64,000 nucleotides of DNA from Minisyncoccia bacterium (GTDB taxonomy: Bacteria; Patescibacteriota; Minisyncoccia; 2-02-FULL-40-12; IGHO2-01-FULL-4-A). Every line of letters begins with the position of its first letter. Positions within the stretch are counted from its first letter, which is position 1. The translations under genes and the position numbers were made by a program. Below, piece by piece: positions 55,012 through 64,000 of the stretch. Under the pieces are notes generated by a model. That model ran no database searches. It saw only the letters and a program-made list of their open reading frames with translations, and had not been told where the DNA came from. Where the stretch lies: NCBI GenBank assembly GCA_050015375.1, contig JBEKBN010000003.1:16127-80126 (forward strand). The letters run 5' to 3'.

Positions 55012-55656
55012 ATGTCTTACGATTTTTATAAATCCGAAGATTATAGACAAAGACAAAGTATATTAACAAAACTAAATTGGCAGAAAGGAGTTTTTGATCA
55101 TCGGATAAGGAATGAAAAGAGAATTTGTAAACGAAGGGGATGCCATAAAGTATTCTATGCCAAACCTAGCAATCCCAAAGTTTTTTGTTCCATATCCTGC
55201 GCTGCAATATACAATAATACAGGGCGGATTCGACGCAGAATAACTTATTGCTTAAATTGCAACAAAAAAACTCCACGCTCTGGCTATAAATATTGTAGTA
55301 ATGCGTGCCAAATCGGTTTTCAATACAAAACATACATTCAAAAATGGAAAGAAGGCAAAAAGAATGGATTAAACGAAAGTATCGGAGTCGTAAATAAGTA
55401 TGTTAAAAGATATTTAAGAGAAAAATATAAAAATGAATGTTGTTTGTGTGGTTGGTCACAAATAAATCCAAGAACAAATACAATTCCCTTATCAGCTGAT
55501 CATATAGATGGAAATTGGCGGAATAATCGAGAAGAAAATTTAAGATTACTTTGTCCAAATTGTGATTCTTTAACTCCAACCTATAAGAACCTAAATAAAG
55601 GTAGAGGAAGGAATATTAGATTGCTTGGACTAAAGAAAGTGAGTAAGTTAGTATAA
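55012..55656 (+). CDS. HNH endonuclease (free-standing, inserted within tRNA cluster)
   Basis: CCLCGW...ADHIDGNWRNNREENLRLLCPNCD HNH/Zn motif, plus N-terminal CxxC pairs. Starts 2 nt after the tRNA-Thr end. Confidence 0.75.
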   Translation: MSYDFYKSEDYRQRQSILTKLNWQKGVFDHRIRNEKRICKRRGCHKVFYAKPSNPKVFCSISCAAIYNNTGRIRRRITYCLNCNKKTPRSGYKYCSNACQIGFQYKTYIQKWKEGKKNGLNESIGVVNKYVKRYLREKYKNECCLCGWSQINPRTNTIPLSADHIDGNWRNNREENLRLLCPNCDSLTPTYKNLNKGRGRNIRLLGLKKVSKLV

Positions 55657-55670
55657 ATTTTATCAAATTT

Positions 55671-55753
55671 GGGCGGTTGGGTGAGTAGCAATACCAGCGC
55701 GCTGTAAACGCGCCGACCATCGGTCTTCGGGGGTGCAAGTCCCTCACCGCCCA
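55671..55753 (+). tRNA. tRNA-Tyr (GUA), class II with long variable arm. Unusual T-loop (TGCAAGT)
   Basis: Acceptor GGGCGGT/ACCGCCC, anticodon stem GCGCG/CGCGC with loop CTGTAAA, variable arm gacc-atc-ggtc, T-stem GGGGG/CCCTC. Confidence 0.6.
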
Positions 55754-55790
55754 CAAGAAATTTATATTATAACAACAGATGACATGATTA

Positions 55791-55862
55791 GCCGGGGTAG
55801 TTCAGTGGCAGAACGCTTTCTTGGTAAGAAAGAAGTCGTGAGTTCGATTCTCACCTCCGGCT
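55791..55862 (+). tRNA. tRNA-Thr (GGU)
   Basis: Acceptor GCCGGGG/CTCCGGC (one G-U), D GTTC/GAAC, anticodon stem CTTTC/GAAAG with loop TTGGTAA, T-arm GTGAG-TTCGATT-CTCAC. Confidence 0.85.
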
Positions 55863-55903
55863 CAGTAATTATTTGCAATTATAAATTTTCGATGATCATT
55901 TAT

Positions 55904-55933
55904 TTGAAAATTGAAAATTGAAAATTGAAAATT
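55904..55933. repeat. 4.3 x 7-nt tandem repeat TTGAAAA
   Basis: ttgaaaattgaaaattgaaaattgaaaatt, upstream of rpmG. Confidence 0.8.
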
Positions 55934-55939
55934 ATATTC

Positions 55940-56104
55940 ATGTCACAAGACAGCTTGATAAAATTAAGATGTTCAGTGTGTAAGAAGGGGATGAGCTTTA
56001 CAACAAAGAACAAGAAGTTGGTTACAAGAAAATTGGAATATAAAAAATATTGCAATGTTTGTCGGAAGCATAATCTATTTAAAGAAGTAAAACTCACCGC
56101 TTAG
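55940..56104 (+). CDS. rpmG: ribosomal protein L33 (zinc-ribbon form)
   Basis: MSQDSLIKLRCSVCKKGMSFTTKNKKLVTRKLEYKKYCNVCRKHNLFKEVKLTA. 54 aa, below the track cutoff. Confidence 0.85.
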   Translation: MSQDSLIKLRCSVCKKGMSFTTKNKKLVTRKLEYKKYCNVCRKHNLFKEVKLTA

Positions 56105-56113
56105 GTGAGCATC

Positions 56114-56149
56114 GGGGGCGTCGTTCAGTGGCAGGACGCTGGTCTCCAA
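56114..56149 (+). pseudogene. orphan 5' half of a canonical-type tRNA-Trp (acceptor, D-arm, anticodon stem, loop up to CTCCAA)
   Basis: gggggcgtcgttcagtggcaggacgctggtctccaa resembles typical bacterial tRNA-Trp 5' halves but has no complementary 3' half downstream. It shares only ggtctccaa with the intact tRNA-Trp 18 bp away. Confidence 0.6.
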
Positions 56150-56167
56150 TCCCATCACATTCAAAAT

Positions 56168-56238
56168 GGGGATGTCGGTTAACGGCAAACCAACGGTCTC
56201 CAAAACCGTGACTGTAGGTTCGATTCCTACCATCCCCG
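56168..56238 (+). tRNA. tRNA-Trp (CCA)
   Basis: Acceptor GGGGATG/CATCCCC, D GGTT/AACC, anticodon stem ACGGT/ACCGT with loop CTCCAAA, T-arm GTAGG-TTCGATT-CCTAC. Confidence 0.85.
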
Positions 56239-56256
56239 CGTTAAGAATGTGAGGGA

Positions 56257-56361
56257 CGATTCCTTGCGCCCCCGCAAAATCAAAAACAGCCCTGCGGCTG
56301 TTTTTGATTTGAGGAGCAAGGAATCGAACGTCGGAGCGATATTTCGTTAGAAGACGAAATC
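56257..56361 (+). other. nested long hairpins downstream of tRNA-Trp (possible terminator / element-end structure)
   Basis: Outer cgattccttgc/gcaaggaatcg and inner aaaatcaaaaacagcc-ctgc-ggctgtttttgatttg. A second hairpin cgatatttcg...cgaaatcg. Confidence 0.4.
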
Positions 56362-56490
56362 GCGAGATGGTGCCCAGACCGAGGCGAGAGACGGCAAGCC
56401 GAGAGTCGAGGGAGATTTCATTGCGCACCCCTTAAAACGATTAAATTAAAAAACCTCTTTAATGAGGCTTTTTAATTATAACAGTTTAAA

Positions 56491-56685
56491 TTATTTATTA
56501 ATGTTCACACTCACTTCGATTCTCTTCATGAGGTTTTCAACATCCTCAACTTTATAAAGCCGGTAGTTATTCACAGGGTTGCGGAATGCAACAAGCCGCC
56601 CTTTTTTGTCCCAATTGCGGACTGTCAAGGGCGTAACACCGAAAATTTTTGCGACTTCATTAACGGACAAATATCTCTTTGGCAT
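56491..56685 (-). CDS. excisionase/MerR-like helix-turn-helix DNA-binding protein
   Basis: YLSVNEVAKIFGVTPLTVRNWDKKGRLVAFRNPVNNYRLYKVEDV HTH_17-like. Confidence 0.55.
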   Translation of the reverse strand: MPKRYLSVNEVAKIFGVTPLTVRNWDKKGRLVAFRNPVNNYRLYKVEDVENLMKRIEVSVNINK

Positions 56686-57189
56686 GTTACAGGGTCATCA
56701 TAAATTATTAAAAACACCTAAATTTTGATGTAATGAACAAAAAAATTCGTTAATTTATGATAAATGTTTATCAAAAAAGTATTATCAATGTTTATTAATG
56801 TATACATATGATAGTATAACTTTCTTTTATTTTAAAGGCGAGGGGATAACTTTTTGATTTCCGGGAACATCCTAACATTATTTGAAGTAAAAAGATTTAC
56901 CAGGTATTAGAATCCCATTATAGAAGAAGAAAGTTATCAACAAATTTTAAAAACGATGCTCTATAATTAGTACATGATTTTATTATCGGATATCGCATCG
57001 GATTACGCATCCGATATATGAGAATAAATCAATGAATCCCAAGTTATTTATAAACATCCGATAACGCACAGCGACCCCGATAATATCGGGGTCGCCTGGA
57101 ACGCGCGTTTATGACTTTAGTGAGTCATAAACTATAACAATTTTACTAAAAATAAGTACCCGTGTAAACACTAAAAAAGAAGACGTCTG

Positions 57190-60100
57190 ATGCCAAAATA
57201 TTTCGAAGAAAAAAAATACATTTCTCTTCAAGAGGCCTCAAAACTTTGTTCGTATTCTCCGGAGTACCTTCGTCTTTTAGCGCGACAGAAAAAGATCATT
57301 TCAAAACGCATCGGTAGAAATTGGTACACAACCGAGGAAGCGGTTCAAAAATATGTCGCCAAACAAAGTTTGACGATTGTCATTCCGAAAAGTGTATTTA
57401 CCGGAACAAATGGGGAGGAAGAACAGAGTGCCGAAATCAAATTAACTTCGAATGGATCAGAGACCGGCCAAGAGGTGATAAAGTTGGTTTCTGAAGCTGA
57501 TCTTAAGGACACGATTGAAAAAGCAAAATATGAAGAAGAAATAAAAGAAAAAAAGACGGAAAGTATTCTGGAAAATATACACGCGGATCTTGCGAACATT
57601 TCAGAATATAATTTGAGTAGCAGACAAGAGTTAAATGAAATAAAAAGCGGAGTGAAACTTCAAGAAAAAGTAGCCGGTGATCTTGGAAGCATTTCCATGA
57701 GTCTGGAAAAACTCTCCGAACTTCAAAACCAACAGCTGTCGCATATCCAGAGAATGGAGATAGAACAGATCCATTCCCAAAAGGATAAAGAAATACCGGA
57801 GCAGATCGCTATTTCACTCGCGGCACTATCGGAAAATCTAAAACAGCTTTCTTCGATTCACGACCTGCAATTAAAACAGGTTGAAATGCAAAAAGAAATG
57901 ACGGATTCGAAAATGGCTGAAATGCCGAAGCTTATTGATGTTGAGAAAATTCAAAAATCAATCGACGGAACCAATGAAAGAACCGAAAAAATACTTGAAA
58001 AAATTAATCAGGGGTTATCGGGATTAATGGAAAAAAATAACGCTGAAAGGCCGGTTCAAATCATTGAGCATGAAACCGCGCCGAAAGTTATCAATGTTCA
58101 TTACGATACAAAATCGCAGGATGAAATAAAGGAATCGCTCGATAAAATAACCGAAAACCTGAAGCAGCTGTCGCTGATTCAGAATGTTCAATTAAAACAG
58201 ATTCAATTGCAACAGCAGTCGTTTGATAAAGCGATCATTCAAAATCTTGAATTAAAACAGGAGCAACTGCAAAGTCAAAACGCTCAGCCGGCAGTTCAAC
58301 CTGTTGCTTCAATGTTGCCACAAGTATTTAATCCCGAATTCATTTCTGAAAGAACTGACAGGATTCTCGAAAAAATCTACACTTCGGTGGACAGATTGGT
58401 TCAGGCGCAGGAAACGCAATTGCTTGAAAAAACAATTAGACCCGAACCCCAGATAATTCAAGTTCAAGTTCCCACTCCTTCGACTCCGGCTTACAGATTT
58501 CAGACGCCGATCTACGAATCAACTCCGCCAGTCGTCGCGCTTCCTCCGAAGCTTGAAGAATTTCTCGATGTCCAGGCCGGTAGCATTGATTACAAATTAA
58601 AAAAACTCGACAAGGAAGGTAAAAAAATATTCAGCGACCGGAAAAAAAGCATGGCTTTGGTTTTTTCTGTGGTCATTGTTATTTTTCTTCTCGTCGGCGG
58701 ATTCAGTTTTGGAAATTTCAACGGCATCGGCATGGCCATCAAAGGGGTTTTCAAGAACGCCGACACCATTCAGGGGCATTTTGCTGGCACTCATCCCAAC
58801 GAAGTTCTACTTCTTGACGCTAACGGTAACATCGCCATCGCCGGCCATGTCGAGACCACGGCCGTCCAGTTAGATTCCACCGACGGTTCAGCGCCGATCA
58901 TCGTTGACCAGAATTTTTTGAAGAATCTGAAAGGCGGAACGATAAACATCAATGGCGTGGATTCAGGCAAATTCACTCTGGCTTTTGTTACGGCTAACGG
59001 CAATGTAACTTATCAAGATGTGAAATTGGAGGGAAATATTGAGGTCGGAAAAACTCTGATGGTCAAAGGCGCGACCCAATTATTAGCTTCTCTGACAATT
59101 GCTAAGGGTGATCTGAATATCGCCAGCGGCAATTTGAATCTCGGCACCGGCACCATCACCACCAACAACAAAACGATGGTGAAAAACTTGAATGCCGAAT
59201 ATTTGCAGGGCAAGACGCCGGCGGATTTTGTTACTGGTGTGGCGAATACCGTGGCAAACACCGTTGCCGGCAGTCAAACCCTTGATTCCGTTGTCACTAA
59301 CGGCAATTCAACAAGCCACACCGCGTTTTTCAATGGCGGGCTATACGGCGGCGCCGGCAGTTTTGCAACCTTGGGCGTCGGCGGCGATGTCGGGTTGGGC
59401 AAGCAATCTGACCCGAGCAGTGTCACAATGACATCCTATTTCAAGAACTTTACTCTTGATTCGAGCGGTAATAGTTCATTTACTGGCAATGTCGGTGTTG
59501 GAGGAAACCTAAATATCTCCGGCACAACGACAACACAAAACTTGGATGTTAACGGCACAGCGGACATTAATATTGCATCTGTTTCGGCGTATTTTGGAAA
59601 TGGAATGCCGACATCCGATTGCAGTAGTGTTGGTCAGGCGTTATTGTGGAACAAAATTACCGGAAAATTTTCTTGCGGTATCGCCGGTACTGGTTCGGGT
59701 GGCGGCTGGGTAACCGTAAAATCAGGCAATACTGAAGTTTTAGCGTCATCATCAATCCTAAATTTTAATAGCGGCAAATTCACCGCAACGGCGAGCGGAG
59801 ATAGTGAAACATTACTAAACCTTAATTGGGGAAATGGAGGACCGGCATCGCGTTCGCAAGAAAATACCTGGACCGCCCTCAATACTTTTAGCAATATCAG
59901 CATGGGCACTGTGGTCAGCGGGTCTTGGCACGGAACAGCCATTGGCGCTCAATATGGCGGCACCGGATTATCCGCTATTACTAATAATCAGCTTTTGATC
60001 GGAGGCCCGGGCGATACAATTGTTCAAGTTGCCACATCTTCTTTGGGCTTGATTGGCGATAACGATTTTACCGCCAACGGTCTTATGGCCAGAACATCAG

Positions 60101-63100
60101 CCGGCGCATATACTTCGAGAACCATAACGGGAACAGACAATCAAATAGCAGTCGCGAATGGCAACGGCGTTTCTGGCAATCCGACGATAAGTTTACCGAG
60201 TGTTGTTTATTTGGGCTCATCTGGCAAGCTTGGCCGGGACGCTAATAATCTTTTGGACTTTTCAACCGACGGTCAGATAACTTTTCGCGCCAACTCCACC
60301 AATGAAATGGTTATGAATGGGACTGGCCTGTCGGTCAGCGGCACATTGGCTGCCGGCGCCACTACGCTTTCCGGCAATTTGGCGATGGGCGGTTATAAAA
60401 TAACTGGGCTGGCGATGCCCTCCGCTTCTCAAGAGGCAGCCACAAAAGGATATGTGGACGCGGTGGCGCAAGGCCTCCAGCCAAAAGACGCCGTCCGAGC
60501 GGCCACGATTGAAAATATTACTTTGAGCGGCGAACAAACGGTTGACACGGTAAGTTTAGTTGCCGGCGACAGAGTTCTGGTAAAAACCCAAAACGACGCG
60601 GCAACCGATGGCATTTATGTGGTTTCTGCCGGCGCCTGGTCTCGTTCCGCCGATGCCGATACGAGCGCGAAAGTAACTTCCGGCATGTACACATTCGTGG
60701 TTGAAGGAGACAAAGACATAGGAAACGGTTATGTATTGTTAACTCCCAATCCGATAGATCTTGGCGTCACCCCTCTTACATTCACTCAATTTTCTGGTGC
60801 GGGGCAGATCATCGCCGGCAACGGTCTCCTAAAATCCGATTCAAACACCATTGATGTCGTCGGCACAGCCAATAGGATCATTGCTTATCCCGATTCCATT
60901 GATATCGCGCCCACGTATGTTGGCCAAAGCTCAATTGCCACTGTCGGAACCCTTAACTCCGGTTCTATTATCCCGGGTTTCGGAGCCATCAATATCGGAA
61001 CCGAACCGCTGACTGCCGGTGTTGGCTCGTTCAGTTCGATCACCGCCTCCAGCACCTTAACGGTTAACAGCACAGCTACATTCAACGGAAATGTCGGTGT
61101 TTCCGGAACTTTGTCGGCGGCCACGGTTGCGCTTTCCGGTAATTTGGCAATGGGCAATCATTACATCACCGGCTTGGCCAGCCCTCTTAGTGCGCAGGAT
61201 GCCGCCACCAAAGGATATGTTGACGCGCTGGCCCAAGGCCTGACAGTTAAAGACGCCGTCCGGGTGGCGACGACCGGAGATATCACTTTGAGCGGTGAAC
61301 AAACAATTGATGGCGTAGCTGCGGTCGCCGGAGACAGAATTTTGGTGAAAAACGAAACAGATAAAAAAACCAATGGCATTTATGTGGTTAGCGCCGGCGC
61401 CTGGTCTCGTTCCGCCGATGCCGATACAAGCGCGAAAGTAACTTCCGGCATGTACACTTTTGTGACCGATGGAACAACCCAAGCCAACACCGGCTGGAGC
61501 TTGATCACTCCCAATCCCATTGCTTTGAATACAACCCCTCTTGATTTCACCCAATTTTCCGGCGCCGCCGAAATAATAGCCGGCAACGGCTTGGTCAAGA
61601 CAGGCAACACCATCAATGTCGTCGGTACCGCTGATAGGATCATCGCCAATGCCGATTCCATTGATATCGCGCCCACATATGTCGGCCAGAGTTCAATTAA
61701 TACCGTTGGTATTCTTAACACCGGTTCCATCACCTCCGGCTTCGGTTCGATCAACATTGGAACTAAACCTCTGACCGCCGGTATTGGCTCATTCAGTTCG
61801 GTTTTAAGTTCGGGTTCAGGTGTTTTTGATAGCCAGTTGACTGCCGCCTATTTTACGGCCACATCAACAACCGCCAGTTCCACTTTTCCGTACCTTGAAG
61901 TCAGCGGACGGTCCAAGCTGGGGACGGTAACCGGCGGAACCTGGAACGGTTCCATTGTCGGCGTTCCTTACGGCGGCACCGGCGTGTCGAGTTTTACCAC
62001 AAGAGGAATACTTTACGGAAATGGTACCGGTAACATCGCGGTAACTACGGCTGGAACCAACGGCGAGGTGCTTATGGCCGGCATCGGCGGCTTGCCTTCC
62101 TTTGTTGCCACTGCTTCTCTCGGACTTTTGGGCTCATCAATCACCAGTTCTCTGACCAGCAATTACATTCCCAAATGGACCGGTTCCGCTTTTGGCAACT
62201 CCCTGATTTACGACAATGGAACAAACGTCGGCATCGGCACCATTTCCCCCGATTCAGTCCTTGAAATCGCCTCCAATTCTGCCAAGTTCATCATCCGGTC
62301 AACCGGTTCAAACAACTCCACTCTTACTTTTGAACCCTCCAACCTCGGCTCGGCGAGTACCAATGACGGGATGTTCAGTGTCGTGGCAAGTGGTGGAGCG
62401 GGAAAAGACGATTTAATTATCAAAAACGCCACTAATACCAATCTTGTTACCGTTGCCTCCACCGGTTTTGTTGGCATCGGCAGTCCCTCCTCAACATTCG
62501 CCAAATTGGATGTTGCCGGCACGATCAGAGGCCAGAACTTCATGACTTCCGGCGGTTCTCCGGTTAACGATATCCTTCTTCCCCAAGATGTCCAGAATTA
62601 TTCCATCAACTCCCTCAAGGGCACAACCGGCCTTGATATGGCTGATATTCATCAAAAAGTCGCGGCTACTGATTTTACCGGCAACCATGAATCATACAAT
62701 GAATCCGCTACCGCCTTGGCCAATGGCAATGTCCTGATCGCTTACGAGGATGGCGGCAATTCCTGGCGCGGCACTTTTGTGATCTACGATTCAGCCGGAA
62801 ACCAGATCAAATCACCGACCGTGTTTTCCGGAACTCATGGAGTAACCCCCAAATCCGCCATCACCCTCACCAATGGCAATATCCTGATCGCTTACGAAGA
62901 TGGCGACAATTCAAACTATGGCACTTTTGTGATTTACGATTCAGCCGGCAATCTTGTCAAAGCCCCGACAGTGTTCTCCGGAAATCATGATACAGAATTT
63001 AGTTCCGCTGTCACCTTAACCAATGGCAATGTCCTAATTGTCTATGGGGATGCCGACAATTCAGTTTACGGTACTTTTGTGATCTATGATTCTGCCGGAA

Positions 63101-64000
63101 ACCGAGTCAAAGCCCCGACTGTATTTTCCGGAACCCATTCAATAAACTTTGACTCCGCTACCGCCTTGGCCAACGGCAATGCCATGATTACTTATCAAGA
63201 TATCCCCAATTCAACTCGCGGCACTTTTGTCATCTACGATTCAGCCGGCAATCAGATCAAAGCCCCGACCGTATTTTCCGGAAGTGATAGTGCGTATTTC
63301 GAATCTGCCACCACCTTGATCAATGGCAACATTCTGATCGCTTATCAAGATACCAGCAATTCAAATTATGGCACTTTTGTGATCTACGATTCAGCCGGTA
63401 ACCAGATCAAATCACCGACCGTATTTTCCGGAACTCATGAAGCTGACGCCAACTCCGCCGTCGCCTTAACTAACGGCAATGTCTTGATCGCTTATGAAGA
63501 TGCCGGCAATTCATATTATGGCACATTTGTAATTTATGATTCAGCCGGAAATCTTGTCAAAGCACCAACCGTGTTTGCCAGCGCGAATACATTTTGGGAC
63601 AAGTTATTCACCACCACCCTGACTAATGGCGATATTGCCATGGGTTATGGCACATACGCCGCCGGCGTGTCAAAAGAAAAATTCGTCATCTACGAAGGCA
63701 CCGGTTCATATTTTGCCCGCAACGTCGGCATCGGCACCACCACTCCCGCCACCCGTCTCCAAGTCGAAGGCACCGCCTCCGCCTCCTACCTCTTAACGGG
63801 TAATACCCTCCAAGTAGGCGGTTATTCCTCTGCCGCCTTTAATCGGTTTGGCACCGCTACCATAGCTCATTCCAACTATATGTCCTCTAACAACGATGTC
63901 ATGATAGGCGGCGACCTATATACCGTAGGTACCGTGTCTGCCAATATCGTCTCCGCCTCTGCCTTCTTTGGTCTGGGTCTACCCACAAGTGATTGCACCG
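57190..64000 (+). CDS. giant membrane-anchored surface protein (partial, >2270 aa, continues beyond window)
   Basis: A single frame with no stop from ATG 57190 to the window end. N-terminal excisionase/MerR-like HTH, about 450 aa of coiled coil, one TM helix (VFSVVIVIFLLVGGFSFGNF, near 58650-58720), then Gly/Thr/Asn-rich beta-helix-like sequence, two ~255-aa tail-fibre-like modules, and six to seven 50-aa tandem repeats. Confidence 0.8.
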   Translation, partial: MPKYFEEKKYISLQEASKLCSYSPEYLRLLARQKKIISKRIGRNWYTTEEAVQKYVAKQSLTIVIPKSVFTGTNGEEEQSAEIKLTSNGSETGQEVIKLVSEADLKDTIEKAKYEEEIKEKKTESILENIHADLANISEYNLSSRQELNEIKSGVKLQEKVAGDLGSISMSLEKLSELQNQQLSHIQRMEIEQIHSQKDKEIPEQIAISLAALSENLKQLSSIHDLQLKQVEMQKEMTDSKMAEMPKLIDVEKIQKSIDGTNERTEKILEKINQGLSGLMEKNNAERPVQIIEHETAPKVINVHYDTKSQDEIKESLDKITENLKQLSLIQNVQLKQIQLQQQSFDKAIIQNLELKQEQLQSQNAQPAVQPVASMLPQVFNPEFISERTDRILEKIYTSVDRLVQAQETQLLEKTIRPEPQIIQVQVPTPSTPAYRFQTPIYESTPPVVALPPKLEEFLDVQAGSIDYKLKKLDKEGKKIFSDRKKSMALVFSVVIVIFLLVGGFSFGNFNGIGMAIKGVFKNADTIQGHFAGTHPNEVLLLDANGNIAIAGHVETTAVQLDSTDGSAPIIVDQNFLKNLKGGTININGVDSGKFTLAFVTANGNVTYQDVKLEGNIEVGKTLMVKGATQLLASLTIAKGDLNIASGNLNLGTGTITTNNKTMVKNLNAEYLQGKTPADFVTGVANTVANTVAGSQTLDSVVTNGNSTSHTAFFNGGLYGGAGSFATLGVGGDVGLGKQSDPSSVTMTSYFKNFTLDSSGNSSFTGNVGVGGNLNISGTTTTQNLDVNGTADINIASVSAYFGNGMPTSDCSSVGQALLWNKITGKFSCGIAGTGSGGGWVTVKSGNTEVLASSSILNFNSGKFTATASGDSETLLNLNWGNGGPASRSQENTWTALNTFSNISMGTVVSGSWHGTAIGAQYGGTGLSAITNNQLLIGGPGDTIVQVATSSLGLIGDNDFTANGLMARTSAGAYTSRTITGTDNQIAVANGNGVSGNPTISLPSVVYLGSSGKLGRDANNLLDFSTDGQITFRANSTNEMVMNGTGLSVSGTLAAGATTLSGNLAMGGYKITGLAMPSASQEAATKGYVDAVAQGLQPKDAVRAATIENITLSGEQTVDTVSLVAGDRVLVKTQNDAATDGIYVVSAGAWSRSADADTSAKVTSGMYTFVVEGDKDIGNGYVLLTPNPIDLGVTPLTFTQFSGAGQIIAGNGLLKSDSNTIDVVGTANRIIAYPDSIDIAPTYVGQSSIATVGTLNSGSIIPGFGAINIGTEPLTAGVGSFSSITASSTLTVNSTATFNGNVGVSGTLSAATVALSGNLAMGNHYITGLASPLSAQDAATKGYVDALAQGLTVKDAVRVATTGDITLSGEQTIDGVAAVAGDRILVKNETDKKTNGIYVVSAGAWSRSADADTSAKVTSGMYTFVTDGTTQANTGWSLITPNPIALNTTPLDFTQFSGAAEIIAGNGLVKTGNTINVVGTADRIIANADSIDIAPTYVGQSSINTVGILNTGSITSGFGSINIGTKPLTAGIGSFSSVLSSGSGVFDSQLTAAYFTATSTTASSTFPYLEVSGRSKLGTVTGGTWNGSIVGVPYGGTGVSSFTTRGILYGNGTGNIAVTTAGTNGEVLMAGIGGLPSFVATASLGLLGSSITSSLTSNYIPKWTGSAFGNSLIYDNGTNVGIGTISPDSVLEIASNSAKFIIRSTGSNNSTLTFEPSNLGSASTNDGMFSVVASGGAGKDDLIIKNATNTNLVTVASTGFVGIGSPSSTFAKLDVAGTIRGQNFMTSGGSPVNDILLPQDVQNYSINSLKGTTGLDMADIHQKVAATDFTGNHESYNESATALANGNVLIAYEDGGNSWRGTFVIYDSAGNQIKSPTVFSGTHGVTPKSAITLTNGNILIAYEDGDNSNYGTFVIYDSAGNLVKAPTVFSGNHDTEFSSAVTLTNGNVLIVYGDADNSVYGTFVIYDSAGNRVKAPTVFSGTHSINFDSATALANGNAMITYQDIPNSTRGTFVIYDSAGNQIKAPTVFSGSDSAYFESATTLINGNILIAYQDTSNSNYGTFVIYDSAGNQIKSPTVFSGTHEADANSAVALTNGNVLIAYEDAGNSYYGTFVIYDSAGNLVKAPTVFASANTFWDKLFTTTLTNGDIAMGYGTYAAGVSKEKFVIYEGTGSYFARNVGIGTTTPATRLQVEGTASASYLLTGNTLQVGGYSSAAFNRFGTATIAHSNYMSSNNDVMIGGDLYTVGTVSANIVSASAFFGLGLPTSDCT
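60415..61840 (+). repeat. tandem duplication of a ~770-bp module inside the giant gene
   Basis: The two modules share KGYVDA.AQGL..KDAVR.AT...ITLSGEQT.D.V..VAGDR.LVK...D..T.GIYVVSAGAWSRSADADTSAKVTSGMYTFV. They contain a near-identical ~67-nt DNA stretch at 60627-60694 and 61393-61460. Confidence 0.8.
62704..63750 (+). repeat. 6 exact-period 150-bp (50-aa) tandem repeats plus a degenerate 7th, inside the giant gene
   Basis: Units SATALANGNVLIAYEDGGNSWRGTFVIYDSAGNQIKSPTVFSGTHGVTPK at 62704, 62854, 63004, 63154, 63304 and 63454. Confidence 0.85.

What the first reader, a model, noticed from the sequence alone, without database searches (positions are those of the whole stretch)
57190..64000. 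Giant (>2270 aa) membrane-spanning protein with cytoplasmic HTH and long coiled coil, and extracellular fibre/propeller-like repeats
- The N-terminus carries the same excisionase/MerR-type HTH as the small gene at 56491.
- After a single TM helix come tail-fibre-like duplicated modules and seven 50-aa blade-like repeats.
- The architecture suggests a signal-transducing or adhesion fibre, plausibly for host-cell attachment in an episymbiont.
- It may be cargo of the element inferred at tRNA-Trp.
Basis: partly seen in the sequence, partly recalled or inferred. Interest (0 to 1): 0.6.

Follow-up and report, generated by a model that had tools for sequence, protein, structure and literature searches.

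The report
Membrane-anchored giant fibre with DNA-binding head
A tiny symbiotic (Patescibacteria) bacterium encodes a real, very large surface fibre built partly from phage tail-fibre parts, anchored in the membrane by a cytoplasmic DNA-binding domain. That domain probably controls the fibre's own gene, and the design recurs in thousands of undescribed relatives.

Summary
Window 57190-64000 is one open frame of 2270 codons that runs off the window end. It encodes:
- an N-terminal MerR/excisionase-type winged HTH;
- a heptad-rich helical region;
- one transmembrane helix, with the N-terminus inside;
- a conserved juxtamembrane domain;
- two copies of a phage virion-surface module, 63% identical to a phage protein;
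- a seven-bladed beta-propeller.

A syntenic orthologue of 3866 aa shows the likely continuation: three more propellers and a C-terminal Peptidase_S74 intramolecular-chaperone domain, as in trimeric phage fibres. That orthologue lacks the 2.7-kb phage-module cassette.

The N-terminal HTH defines a large family, almost all from Patescibacteria (7755 cluster representatives). Most members have a single TM helix, and some reach 6890 aa.

New here: paired ATC[CG]GAT sites, usually 12 nt apart and just downstream of a TATAAT box, lie upstream of this gene and of family genes in general. Their density is about 20 times background. This suggests the tethered HTH, or the conserved divergent BldC-like gene, regulates the locus.

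The "mobile-element cargo at tRNA-Trp" idea is not supported. Adhesion to a host is plausible but inferred. I rate it a new variant of known kinds, of fairly high interest.

The parts
56491..56685 (-). Small (64 aa) BldC-like MerR/HTH_17 gene, transcribed divergently from the giant gene.
   Evidence: Pfam MerR E 6.5e-10 and HTH_17 E 1.7e-8. The family profile hits BldC structures 6amk/6ama at E 4e-6. The best NCBIfam hit is HTH_BldC, below its cut-off. A divergent homologue lies 270-1100 bp upstream of the A1-type gene in 31 of 83 loci, and in 13 of the 14 closest.
56962..56967 (+). TATAAT box (-10-like) just upstream of the operator-like sites. Probable promoter of the giant gene (inferred).
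   Evidence: Read directly from the sequence. A TAnwAT box (nearly always TATAAT) lies 11-39 nt upstream of the first site in 14 of 16 orthologous intergenic regions.
56985..57062 (.). Four ATC[CG]GAT sites: 56985-56991, 56997-57003 and 57009-57015 (12-nt spacing), plus 57056-57062. Candidate operator.
   Evidence: Present in all 16 orthologous intergenic regions, often as the palindrome TATCCGATA-N3-TATCGGATA. Across 79 loci the density is 3.89 sites/kb in the 400 nt upstream of family genes against 0.19/kb elsewhere. Adjacent pairs number 42 against 11. Permuted 7-mers average 3.25 hits against 123 observed. This is the only cluster in the 64-kb window.
57071..57132 (+). Two perfect hairpins (57071-57095 and 57107-57132) in the presumed 5' leader.
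   Evidence: Inverted repeats I8 and I15. The stretch is identical in the orthologous locus L001. No Rfam family matches. Function unknown.
57190..64000 (+). 5' part (2270 codons) of the giant gene. The ORF runs off the window end.
   Evidence: The orthologue P0001 is 3866 aa and complete. dN/dS is 0.09 over aa 1-781 against the orthologue.
57217..57369 (+). Cytoplasmic MerR/excisionase-type winged HTH (aa 10-60).
   Evidence: It defines a family of 7755 cluster representatives.
57487..58434 (+). Heptad-rich helical (coiled-coil-like) cytoplasmic region, aa ~100-415, with internal repeats and Pro-containing breaks.
   Evidence: E/Q/K/L-rich composition.
58651..58713 (+). Single transmembrane helix (aa 488-508), N-terminus inside.
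   Evidence: In the family, 89 of 127 members have more K/R on the N-terminal side and 11 have fewer.
58720..59532 (+). Conserved juxtamembrane extracellular domain (aa 511-781), specific to this Patescibacteria family.
   Evidence: 36-53% identity to about 20 homologous loci. No PDB, PHROG or NCBIfam match.
59533..62223 (+). Strain-variable cassette (aa 782-1678), replaced by 523 bp in the orthologous locus.
   Evidence: DNA comparison with L001: 92% identity up to 59534, then no match, then 100% identity from 62224. The right boundary falls in a linker module that recurs at least 3 times in the orthologue's gene.
60280..61023 (+). Phage virion-surface (tail-fibre / head-decoration type) module A, aa 1031-1278.
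   Evidence: PHROG hits at E 1e-77 to 1e-24. More than 3244 homologues, the best listed mostly 57-65% identical, some named 'phage-related tail fiber protein'. 63% identity over 196 aa to P0015, which is encoded on a phage contig. PDB hits: 9nx3 capsid decoration protein and 23sh tail fibre gp9.
61054..61785 (+). Phage virion-surface module B, aa 1289-1532, a duplicate of module A.
   Evidence: 61-77% identity to module A. PHROG best stretches fall here.
62608..63705 (+). Seven 50-aa repeats forming a seven-bladed beta-propeller, aa ~1807-2172.
   Evidence: AF2 pTM 0.63, blade pLDDT 60-83. Foldseek: CylK propeller at E 4e-12 and Photorhabdus PLL/PHL lectins at E ~1e-10, target-normalised TM-score 0.62-0.69.
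63715..64000 (+). Recurring linker/junction module (GIGTTTP...LQVEGTASASY...SAFFGLGLPTSDC), aa 2176-2270.
   Evidence: aa 2247-2270 resemble aa 789-812. aa 2178-2250 are 53-66% identical to segments in L004, L005, L007, L008, L009 and P0006.

Best explanation
**What it is.** This is the 5' two-thirds or less of a chromosomal Patescibacteria (CPR) gene. It encodes a giant single-pass membrane protein with its N-terminus inside the cell and its C-terminus outside.

**Cytoplasmic part.** The first ~487 residues stay in the cytoplasm. They are a MerR/excisionase-type winged HTH followed by a heptad-rich helical stalk.

**Extracellular part.** After the transmembrane helix, a family-specific juxtamembrane domain carries a long modular fibre. 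The fibre consists of phage virion-surface modules, linker modules and lectin-like beta-propellers. By analogy with the syntenic orthologue, it ends in a Peptidase_S74 intramolecular chaperone. In phage fibres that domain drives trimerisation and then cuts itself off.

**Proposed function (inferred).** The fibre projects from the symbiont's surface and binds glycans or other surface structures of the host cell. Strains vary the distal cassettes by recombination between repeated linker modules.

**Proposed regulation (inferred).** The tethered HTH binds the paired ATC[CG]GAT sites that sit just downstream of the gene's own -10 box. The protein would therefore act as a transmembrane transcription regulator that limits or tunes its own expression. 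The conserved divergent BldC-like protein is a co-regulator or the alternative binder.

**Shown versus inferred.**
- Shown: the ORF, the domain content, the family and its taxonomic spread, the synteny, purifying selection, the cassette difference between strains, and the motif enrichment.
- Inferred: trimer formation, host adhesion, and which protein binds the motif.
For: **ORF and topology.**

**HTH fold and family membership.**

**Family size and shape.** The HTH profile finds 7755 cluster representatives, 100-6890 aa long, often with 2-3 tandem HTH copies. Of 156 top members, 111 have a TM-like segment and 99 have exactly one. All 22 top genomic loci show HTH + one TM + a long ORF, and 18 of the 22 run off the contig end.

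**Taxonomy.** 470 loci were found in species genomes. About 65 of the best 80 carry CPR lineage names.

**Conserved juxtamembrane domain.**

**Orthologue.** P0001 (3866 aa) sits in the same neighbourhood: S2, EF-Ts, a TPR gene, four tRNAs and the small HTH gene. It carries LVIVD, EPTP-like and BNR-like repeats. It also has Peptidase_S74 at aa 3581-3637, preceded by S-S-Q-R-F-K.

**Other family giants.** P0152 and P0203 also carry Peptidase_S74, and P0203 has a collagen repeat after its TM helix.

**Phage modules.**. Their closest relatives sit in phage genomes, one of them next to a Peptidase_S74 fibre gene.

**Propeller.**

**Functional constraint.** dN/dS is 0.09 across the HTH, the helical region and the juxtamembrane domain.

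**Mosaicism.** Identity to the orthologous locus is 92%, then a cassette indel, then 100%.

**Operator-like motif.**. At least 2 sites are present upstream in 28 of 50 loci that lack the small gene.
Against: **No experimental data.** Adhesion and host specificity rest only on domain content.

**C-terminus not seen.** It lies outside the window. The Peptidase_S74 domain is seen only in the orthologue and in 3 of 29 long family members; many of the others are truncated by contig ends.

**Binder of the motif unresolved.** The motif could be bound by the small BldC-like protein, or by another factor acting in trans, rather than by the tethered HTH. The difference in wing residues between genes with and without the motif is confounded by phylogeny.

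**Weak points in the models.**
- The propeller model was made from a single sequence and has only moderate confidence (mean pLDDT 59.7).
- The HTH profile finds no PDB sequence, and the Foldseek E-values are weak because the domain is small.
- The helical region is discontinuous, and its oligomeric state is unknown.
Confidence: 0.55

Rival explanations
1. The protein is a surface fibre or adhesin only, and the tethered HTH is not a transcription regulator. The HTH would instead anchor the nucleoid at the membrane or host-contact site, as RacA does (a MerR-type HTH plus coiled coil that tethers the chromosome). Alternatively it is a protein-interaction module. The ATC[CG]GAT operator would then be read by the small divergent BldC-like protein, which is the real regulator.
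For: - RacA and BldC are among the best structural matches of the HTH.
- HTH followed by a heptad-rich region is the RacA/MerR layout.
- The small BldC-like gene is conserved divergently in 13 of the 14 closest loci, and the motif lies in the shared intergenic region.
- At least 2 motif sites occur upstream in 26 of 30 loci that have the small gene.
Against: - The motif is also present (2 or more sites) upstream of 28 of 50 family genes that have no adjacent small gene.
- The only motif cluster in the 64-kb window is at the giant gene. A chromosome anchor would be expected to have many sites.
Confidence: 0.25
2. The protein is a contact sensor that works by regulated proteolysis. Binding of the fibre to a host triggers cleavage near the membrane, which releases the HTH-plus-helical fragment as a soluble transcription factor.
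For: - A DNA-binding domain sits on a long cytoplasmic linker with Pro-rich breaks at aa 416-460.
- An operator-like motif is present.
- Many family members have the same layout.
Against: - No protease site and no partner site-2 protease gene was identified in the window or in the related loci examined.
- Known transmembrane regulators of the ToxR/CadC type work without release (established knowledge; survey PMC10269533).
- Nothing here tests cleavage.
Confidence: 0.1
3. The gene is a phage or prophage tail-fibre gene, or cargo of an integrative element inserted at tRNA-Trp.
For: - The modules at aa 1031-1532 are 57-65% identical to phage proteins.
- The gene lies ~950 bp downstream of tRNA-Trp, next to an excisionase-family HTH gene.
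- A Peptidase_S74 domain is present in the orthologue.
Against: - The neighbourhood is housekeeping: RF-2-like, S2, EF-Ts and tRNAs.
- The same order, tRNA-Trp ... small HTH ... giant, is kept in 13 of the 14 closest loci from different species.
- No integrase or other phage genes were seen.
- No tRNA-Trp-derived repeat of 12 nt or more lies downstream of the gene in L001.
- The N-terminal HTH, the TM helix and the family-specific juxtamembrane domain are cellular, not virion, features.
- Only the 2.7-kb internal cassette looks phage-derived.
Confidence: 0.03
4. The long ORF is an assembly chimera or a decaying pseudogene rather than a single functional gene.
For: - The sequence is highly repetitive.
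- 18 of the 22 homologous ORFs examined run off contig ends, so such genes assemble poorly.
Against: - There is no stop in 2270 codons.
- An independent assembly has the same fusion as one 3866-aa ORF.
- dN/dS is 0.09.
- HTH + TM + juxtamembrane domain occur in one ORF in more than 20 species.
Confidence: 0.02

Closest known systems
Transmembrane transcription regulators (one-component, ToxR/CadC/TcpP type; surveyed in PMC10269533)
   Same: A DNA-binding domain and a single TM helix sit in one polypeptide, with an N-in topology and an extracytoplasmic C-terminal part. An operator-like element lies at a promoter.
   Different: The DNA-binding domain is a MerR/excisionase-type wHTH (Pfam HTH_17), not the OmpR/PhoB type. 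The ectodomain is a fibre of 1760 to more than 3300 aa, not a small sensor domain. The main text of the survey mentions neither HTH_17 nor Patescibacteria. DNA binding is untested.
RacA (Bacillus chromosome anchor) and BldC (small MerR-like regulator)
   Same: The wHTH fold is the same: rmsd 1.7 A to BldC and 2.7 A to RacA. As in RacA, the HTH is followed by a coiled-coil-like region. BldC binds repeated sites cooperatively (established knowledge), and the sites here are tandem and regularly spaced.
   Different: RacA and BldC are soluble and lack a TM helix or an ectodomain. Sequence similarity is only at superfamily level; the A1 profile finds no PDB sequence.
Phage tail fibres and tailspikes with a C-terminal Peptidase_S74 intramolecular chaperone (e.g. 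K1F endosialidase, T5 pb1), and COG5301-type 'phage-related tail fiber' / head-decoration modules
   Same: Modules A and B are homologous: 63% identity to a phage protein and PHROG E values down to 1e-77. The orthologue and two paralogues carry Peptidase_S74 with an S-x-x-R-x-K motif.
   Different: The protein is not part of a virion. It is anchored in a cell membrane by an N-terminal TM helix, and it is several times longer. It is chromosomal and syntenic across species. The S74 domain is not within the window.
Giant surface proteins of other ultrasmall episymbionts (e.g. SPEARE proteins of Ca. Nanohaloarchaeum antarcticus, PMC6642349)
   Same: It is a multi-thousand-residue, mosaic, presumably host-contact protein in an organism with a very small genome.
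   Different: No sequence relationship was detected, and the domain content differs (SPEARE has protease and restriction-endonuclease domains). SPEARE has no cytoplasmic HTH. The comparison is by concept only and was not tested here beyond finding the paper.
Seven-bladed beta-propeller lectins (Photorhabdus PLL/PHL) and the CylK propeller
   Same: Seven ~50-aa blades. Foldseek E values are 4e-12 (CylK) and 2e-10 to 5e-9 (the lectins), with target-normalised TM-scores up to 0.69.
   Different: Sequence identity is only 8-18%. Sugar-binding residues were not examined. The model is of moderate confidence.

Membership tests
Pfam HTH_17 / MerR-excisionase winged HTH | Sequence match at or above the curated gathering score | tested here: met
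   28.6 bits against a cut-off of 27 when aa 1-68 are scanned alone; 10 of 13 family members match. In the full-length protein the score is 21 bits, below the cut-off.
Pfam HTH_17 / MerR-excisionase winged HTH | beta-alpha-alpha-beta-beta(wing)-alpha fold | tested here: met
   AF2 with a 13-sequence alignment gives core pLDDT ~90. Foldseek probabilities are 0.96-1.0 to GlnR, NmlR, BldC, Pukovnik Xis, RacA and BmrR, at rmsd 1.7-2.7 A.
Pfam HTH_17 / MerR-excisionase winged HTH | Sequence-specific DNA binding | tested here: inconclusive
   A conserved, regularly spaced palindromic motif lies upstream of family genes. Which protein binds it cannot be decided by computation.
Transmembrane transcription regulators (TTR, as defined in PMC10269533) | A predicted DNA-binding domain plus at least one TM region in one protein | tested here: met
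   HTH at aa 10-60 and TM at aa 488-508 in one ORF.
Transmembrane transcription regulators (TTR, as defined in PMC10269533) | The DNA-binding domain faces the cytoplasm | tested here: met
   Positive-inside rule: 6 K/R on the N-terminal side against 2 on the C-terminal side. In the family, the N-terminal side has more in 89 of 127 members. There is no N-terminal signal peptide; residues 1-60 are the hydrophilic HTH.
ToxR/CadC family proper | OmpR/PhoB-type winged-helix DNA-binding domain | tested here: not met
   Pfam finds HTH_17 and no Trans_reg_C. Structural matches are MerR/Xis type.
Phage tail-fibre / virion-surface module (PHROG 11518, 2647, 24595; 'phage-related tail fiber protein') | Sequence homology of the module | tested here: met
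   PHROG E values from 1e-77 to 1e-24, with two stretches each. More than 3244 homologues, the best listed mostly 57-65% identical. 63% identity to P0015.
Phage tail-fibre / virion-surface module (PHROG 11518, 2647, 24595; 'phage-related tail fiber protein') | Encoded within a phage or prophage genome as a virion component | tested here: not met
   Housekeeping neighbours, and cross-species synteny of tRNA-Trp, small HTH gene and giant gene. No phage genes were seen nearby.
Peptidase_S74 (intramolecular chaperone) trimeric fibres | C-terminal S74 domain with a Ser-Lys dyad | not testable with these tools
   The C-terminus lies beyond the window, and the source contig was not found. The orthologue P0001 has the domain at E 5.8e-10, preceded by SSQRFK. 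P0152 and P0203 also have it.
Seven-bladed beta-propeller lectins | Seven blades of four strands each closing into a ring | tested here: met
   Seven 50-aa repeats, about four strands per repeat, pTM 0.63. Top Foldseek hits are seven-bladed propellers. Confidence is moderate.
Seven-bladed beta-propeller lectins | Conserved sugar-binding pockets between blades | not tested
   Identity to the PLL/PHL lectins is only 8-12%, and pocket residues were not compared.
Integrative element at a tRNA gene | Integrase gene and a direct repeat of the tRNA 3' end at the far border | tested here: not met
   No integrase was seen in the ORFs examined. No repeat of 12 nt or more from tRNA-Trp plus flank occurs in the 5.8 kb downstream of the gene in L001.
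Integrative element at a tRNA gene | Presence/absence polymorphism among related genomes | tested here: not met
   The gene pair lies downstream of tRNA-Trp in 13 of the 14 closest loci from different species. Only an internal cassette varies.

The most novel reading that the evidence does not exclude
The N-terminal HTH-TM module defines a large and, as far as I could find, undescribed Patescibacteria-specific class of membrane-tethered MerR/Xis-type DNA-binding proteins. Their ectodomains range from short stubs to fibres of more than 6000 aa. In the giant members the HTH, the first part translated, would bind the operator next to its own promoter while the ~12-kb (or longer) gene is still being transcribed and the nascent chain inserted into the membrane. 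That would give cis-acting, co-translational autorepression and tether the locus to the membrane. Host contact by the phage-derived fibre could then relieve or alter this state, linking attachment to gene expression in organisms that have almost no classical signalling systems.
Probability: 0.2. Interest if true: 0.85.

Novelty: new variant of a known kind. Interest (0 to 1): 0.7.

Why it matters
How ultrasmall CPR/Patescibacteria recognise and hold on to their hosts is largely unknown beyond type IV pili. So is how organisms with so few regulators sense contact.

This locus offers a concrete candidate. It is a surface fibre whose distal parts are borrowed from phage host-recognition hardware and are swapped between strains. 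It is physically joined to a DNA-binding domain, and a conserved operator sits at its own promoter.

The family has thousands of members and no curated annotation beyond 'HTH domain-containing protein'. It is probably under-counted, because these genes break assemblies.

The motif, the HTH and the small BldC-like partner give directly testable predictions (EMSA, DAP-seq, reporters). The cassette structure suggests a route by which host range may evolve in episymbionts.

Tried and rejected
**Searches for the rest of the gene.**
- An exact 60-mer from the window end was absent from genome contigs and metagenome contigs, so the true C-terminus could not be fetched.
- A protein-guided metagenome scan gave only two distant (38%) loci, so there is no population-level view of the cassette.
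- The whole-protein homology search was swamped by low-complexity words and returned only 2 hits. Segment queries worked.

**Searches that found nothing.**
- Profile searches of the HTH (A1) and the juxtamembrane domain (A3) against PDB sequences found nothing.
- PHROGs and NCBIfam gave nothing meaningful for the juxtamembrane domain.
- The cluster look-up gave no organism names for the phage-like homologues.
- Rfam found nothing credible in the leader.
- Literature searches found no description of this family. This covers only the held library.

**Analyses that were not decisive.**
- I considered GC/GC3 as evidence that the cassette is foreign. I rejected it because the whole ectodomain, including the conserved juxtamembrane part, has raised GC3 (0.51-0.55 against 0.39).
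- I compared HTH residues between genes with and without the motif. The wing Gly is present in 48/48 against 9/19, but this is confounded by phylogeny and I do not count it as evidence.

**Reading rejected.**
- The small gene is not a mobile-element excisionase, because its pairing with the giant gene is conserved across species.
Full report
**1. The observation**

Window 57190-64000 on the + strand is a single open frame of 2270 codons with no stop. An in-frame TAA lies at 57172, so the ATG at 57190 is the first available start.

Hydropathy shows exactly one strong membrane-spanning segment, at aa ~488-508. It is preceded by RKKS. There are 6 K/R in the 15 residues before it and 2 after, which puts the N-terminus in the cytoplasm.

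- aa 1031-1278 against 1289-1532, at 61-77% identity;
- seven ~50-aa repeats across aa ~1807-2172;
- smaller recurring linker modules (789-812 ~ 2247-2270; 904-956 ~ 1576-1648);
- an internal repeat in the cytoplasmic region.

The 'long coiled coil' needs qualifying. Heptad periodicity is clear in aa ~100-240, 300-345 and 380-415, about 3 sd above shuffles. Proline-containing linkers break it up.

**2. The N-terminal domain**

Pfam HTH_17 matches aa 10-60. The score is below the gathering cut-off in the full-length protein (21 bits) and above it when the domain is scanned alone (28.6 against 27).

An AF2 model built on 13 homologous domains has core pLDDT ~90 and a beta-alpha-alpha-beta-beta-alpha layout. 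Its best structural matches are MerR/excisionase-type DNA-binding domains: GlnR, NmlR, BldC (rmsd 1.7 A), mycobacteriophage Pukovnik Xis, RacA, CarH and BmrR.

The small divergent gene at 56491-56685 is a clear MerR/HTH_17 protein. Its closest match is BldC. The two HTHs are not close copies. BLASTP finds no alignment, and the profile-profile comparison gives only 35% probability. 'Same HTH' is therefore right only at superfamily level.

**3. The family**

A segment query with aa 1-537 found homologues with the same N-terminus. One is annotated as from a Patescibacteria-group bacterium.

An exhaustive HMMER search with the HTH profile gave 7755 cluster representatives at E <= 1e-3 and 2548 at E <= 1e-10. 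They often carry two or three tandem HTH copies at the N-terminus, and they range from ~100 to 6890 aa.
- Of the 156 best, 111 have a TM-like segment and 99 have exactly one, usually 140-300 aa from the N-terminus.
- Across the family the N-terminal flank of the TM helix is the more basic one in 89 of 127 members.

In GTDB species genomes 470 loci encode the domain. About 65 of the best 80 are labelled with CPR lineages (Yanofsky-, Nealson-, Parcu-, Komeili-, Wildermuthbacteria and 'Saccharibacteria').

All 22 top loci show HTH + one TM helix + a long ORF. In 18 of the 22 the ORF runs off the contig end, so these genes are systematically truncated in assemblies.

The ~270 residues just outside the membrane (aa 511-781) are conserved at 36-53% identity in about 20 loci. 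They match nothing in PDB, PHROGs or NCBIfam. This is a family-specific domain.

**4. The orthologue and the missing C-terminus**

P0001 (3866 aa, JGI contig, locus L001) sits in the same neighbourhood: ribosomal protein S2, EF-Ts, a TPR protein, tRNA-Thr/Tyr/Thr/Trp, the small HTH gene, then the giant gene.

At DNA level the comparison runs as follows:
- window 55786-59534 is 92% identical to L001;
- window 59535-62223 has no counterpart, and L001 has 523 bp there instead;
- window 62224-64000 is 100% identical.

The right boundary falls in a linker module that recurs at least three times in the orthologue's gene. That offers homology for in-frame cassette exchange (inferred).

Over aa 1-781 dN/dS is 0.09, and it is similar for the HTH, the helical region and the juxtamembrane domain. 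The whole N-terminal fusion is therefore under purifying selection.

Beyond the point where the window ends, P0001 continues with three further propeller-type repeat regions (EPTP/BNR-like and LVIVD). It then has a Peptidase_S74 domain at aa 3581-3637, preceded by S-S-Q-R-F-K, and a Pro/Ser/Thr-rich tail.

Two other family giants also carry Peptidase_S74, and one has a collagen repeat right after its TM helix. In phage fibres and tailspikes this domain chaperones trimer assembly and then removes itself (established knowledge). I therefore infer a trimeric fibre. For the window's own protein this step is not shown.

**5. The ectodomain modules in the window**

The duplicated modules give PHROG hits at E 1e-77 to 1e-24 to families called tail fibre, head decoration or virion structural protein. 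PDB sequence hits are to a capsid decoration protein and a tail fibre.

A focused search returned more than 3244 homologues. The best listed are mostly 57-65% identical, ~410-446 aa long, and several are named 'phage-related tail fiber protein'.

Two of these were traced to their contigs, which are evidently phage genomes (Thy1, RusA, a CHAP lysin, Lsr2, a holin). In one, the homologue lies next to a Peptidase_S74 fibre gene. Identity to that protein is 63% over 196 aa.

These modules lie entirely inside the strain-variable cassette.

The seven 50-aa repeats model as a beta-propeller (pTM 0.63, blade pLDDT 60-83, single sequence). The best Foldseek matches are the CylK propeller and the seven-bladed Photorhabdus PLL/PHL lectins.

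**6. Surroundings and the mobile-element idea**

The nine closest related loci checked all have tRNA-Trp upstream of the giant gene. Across 83 loci, a divergent small BldC-like gene lies 270-1100 bp upstream in 31. In the 14 closest loci, 13 have both the small gene and tRNA-Trp. The position is therefore a conserved chromosomal neighbourhood across species.

No integrase was seen, and no tRNA-Trp-derived repeat of 12 nt or more occurs downstream of the gene in L001. The 'cargo of an element at tRNA-Trp' reading is not supported. What is mobile is the internal cassette.

**7. A conserved operator-like element (new)**

The 504-bp intergenic region is 97% identical to L001, which is more conserved than the adjoining coding sequence.

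K-mer comparison of 16 orthologous intergenic regions from different species singled out TATCCGATA/TATCGGATA, present in 15-16 of them. The core ATC[CG]GAT occurs as two or three copies. They are usually exactly 12 nt apart and often form the palindrome TATCCGATA-N3-TATCGGATA.

In the window the sites are at 56985, 56997, 57009 and 57056. This is the only cluster in 64 kb.

A TAnwAT box (nearly always TATAAT) lies 11-39 nt upstream of the first site in 14 of 16 regions; in the window it is at 56962-56967. This places the sites at or just after the likely transcription start, which is the position typical of a repressor (inferred).

Across 79 family loci:
- site density is 3.89/kb in the 400 nt upstream of the HTH-TM gene against 0.19/kb elsewhere;
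- adjacent pairs number 42 against 11, in 26 times less sequence;
- composition-matched permuted 7-mers average 3.25 hits against 123 observed.

Two or more sites occur upstream in 26 of 30 loci with the small gene and in 28 of 50 without it. The motif therefore tracks the HTH-TM gene rather than the small gene. This favours binding by the tethered HTH itself, but a trans-acting BldC-like protein is not excluded.

A difference in wing residues between genes with and without the motif exists but is confounded by phylogeny.

**8. Interpretation**

The best-supported picture is a membrane-anchored, probably trimeric, modular surface fibre of a Patescibacteria episymbiont. Its distal modules are taken from phage virion-surface proteins and lectin-like propellers and are exchanged between strains. 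Its cytoplasmic end is a DNA-binding domain that, alone or with the BldC-like partner, controls the locus.

Formally it belongs to the broad class of transmembrane transcription regulators defined in PMC10269533. It is not a ToxR/CadC family member, because its DNA-binding domain is of a different type. Its cytoplasmic layout resembles RacA. Its ectodomain resembles phage fibres with S74 chaperones. Conceptually it parallels the giant SPEARE proteins of nanohaloarchaeal symbionts (PMC6642349), with no sequence relationship.

I found no description of this family in the searchable literature and no curated model beyond HTH_17.

**9. Limits**

Host adhesion, trimerisation, DNA binding and the identity of the operator-binding protein are all inferences. 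The gene's 3' end is outside the window and could not be retrieved. The propeller model is of moderate confidence.

**10. Verdict**

- The mobile-element suggestion is rejected.
- Novelty: a new variant of known kinds.
- Interest: about 0.7. This rests on the size of the undescribed family, the phage-derived swappable host-contact modules, and the directly testable operator.

Noticed in passing
window 55012-55656 (within 55014-55785): A 214-aa ORF lies between tRNA-Thr(tgt) and tRNA-Tyr. It is absent from the otherwise 97%-identical orthologous locus L001. It has a weak HNH_3 hit (E 5e-4, below the cut-off). It may be a strain-specific homing-endonuclease-like insertion in the tRNA cluster.
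   Followed up: partly
window 56756-56798: A tandem 19-nt direct repeat (TATGATAAATGTTTATCAA / TATTATCAATGTTTATTAA, 24-nt spacing) lies near the small HTH gene's start. Each copy contains a GATAAA...TTTATC palindrome. It is identical in L001. It could be a second operator.
   Followed up: no
window 57071-57095 and 57107-57132: Two perfect hairpins lie 60-120 nt upstream of the giant gene's ATG. They are identical in L001, and no Rfam family matches. They may be leader RNA structure or protein-binding palindromes.
   Followed up: partly
window 57190-64000 vs L001 3459-8103: Identity is mosaic within one gene. It is 92-93% over the first 2.3 kb, then a cassette indel, then 100% over the last 1777 bp. 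The flanking housekeeping genes are 96.5-97.8% identical. This suggests recent recombination or gene conversion of the distal part between strains.
   Followed up: partly
window 57190-58650 vs 58651-64000: Composition changes sharply inside the gene. The cytoplasmic part has GC 39.5% and GC3 0.39. The whole ectodomain has GC 49-52% and GC3 0.51-0.55, including the conserved juxtamembrane domain. The cause is unexplained.
   Followed up: no
L024, L032 (Woesearchaeota), L036 and L071 (Spirochaetales), L051 (Omnitrophica), L054 (Bacteroidales), L055 (Pirellulales): A few loci encoding the same HTH domain are labelled with non-CPR taxa, including DPANN archaea. This could be mis-binning or horizontal transfer; I did not examine it.
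   Followed up: no
P0010 (309 aa): A Fic-domain protein (PF02661) carries this family's HTH at its C-terminus and has no TM helix. The HTH therefore also occurs in soluble contexts.
   Followed up: no
L084 10001-13815: In a phage contig, the 446-aa homologue of modules A/B is immediately followed by an 805-aa gene with Peptidase_S74. The phage keeps as two adjacent genes the kinds of parts that the giant protein family combines in one chain.
   Followed up: partly
L001 15214-20765: Downstream of the orthologue's giant gene lie a 117-aa ORF with no domain hit, a 643-aa protein with three Laminin_G_3 (ConA-like lectin) stretches, and an 882-aa TPR protein. They may be further surface or host-interaction genes. 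The equivalent region is beyond the window.
   Followed up: no
L004 1615-7921: The closest GTDB homologue is a 'complete' 1222-aa ORF followed by an overlapping 918-aa ORF on the same strand. This may be a frameshift, real or from assembly, splitting one larger gene.
   Followed up: no
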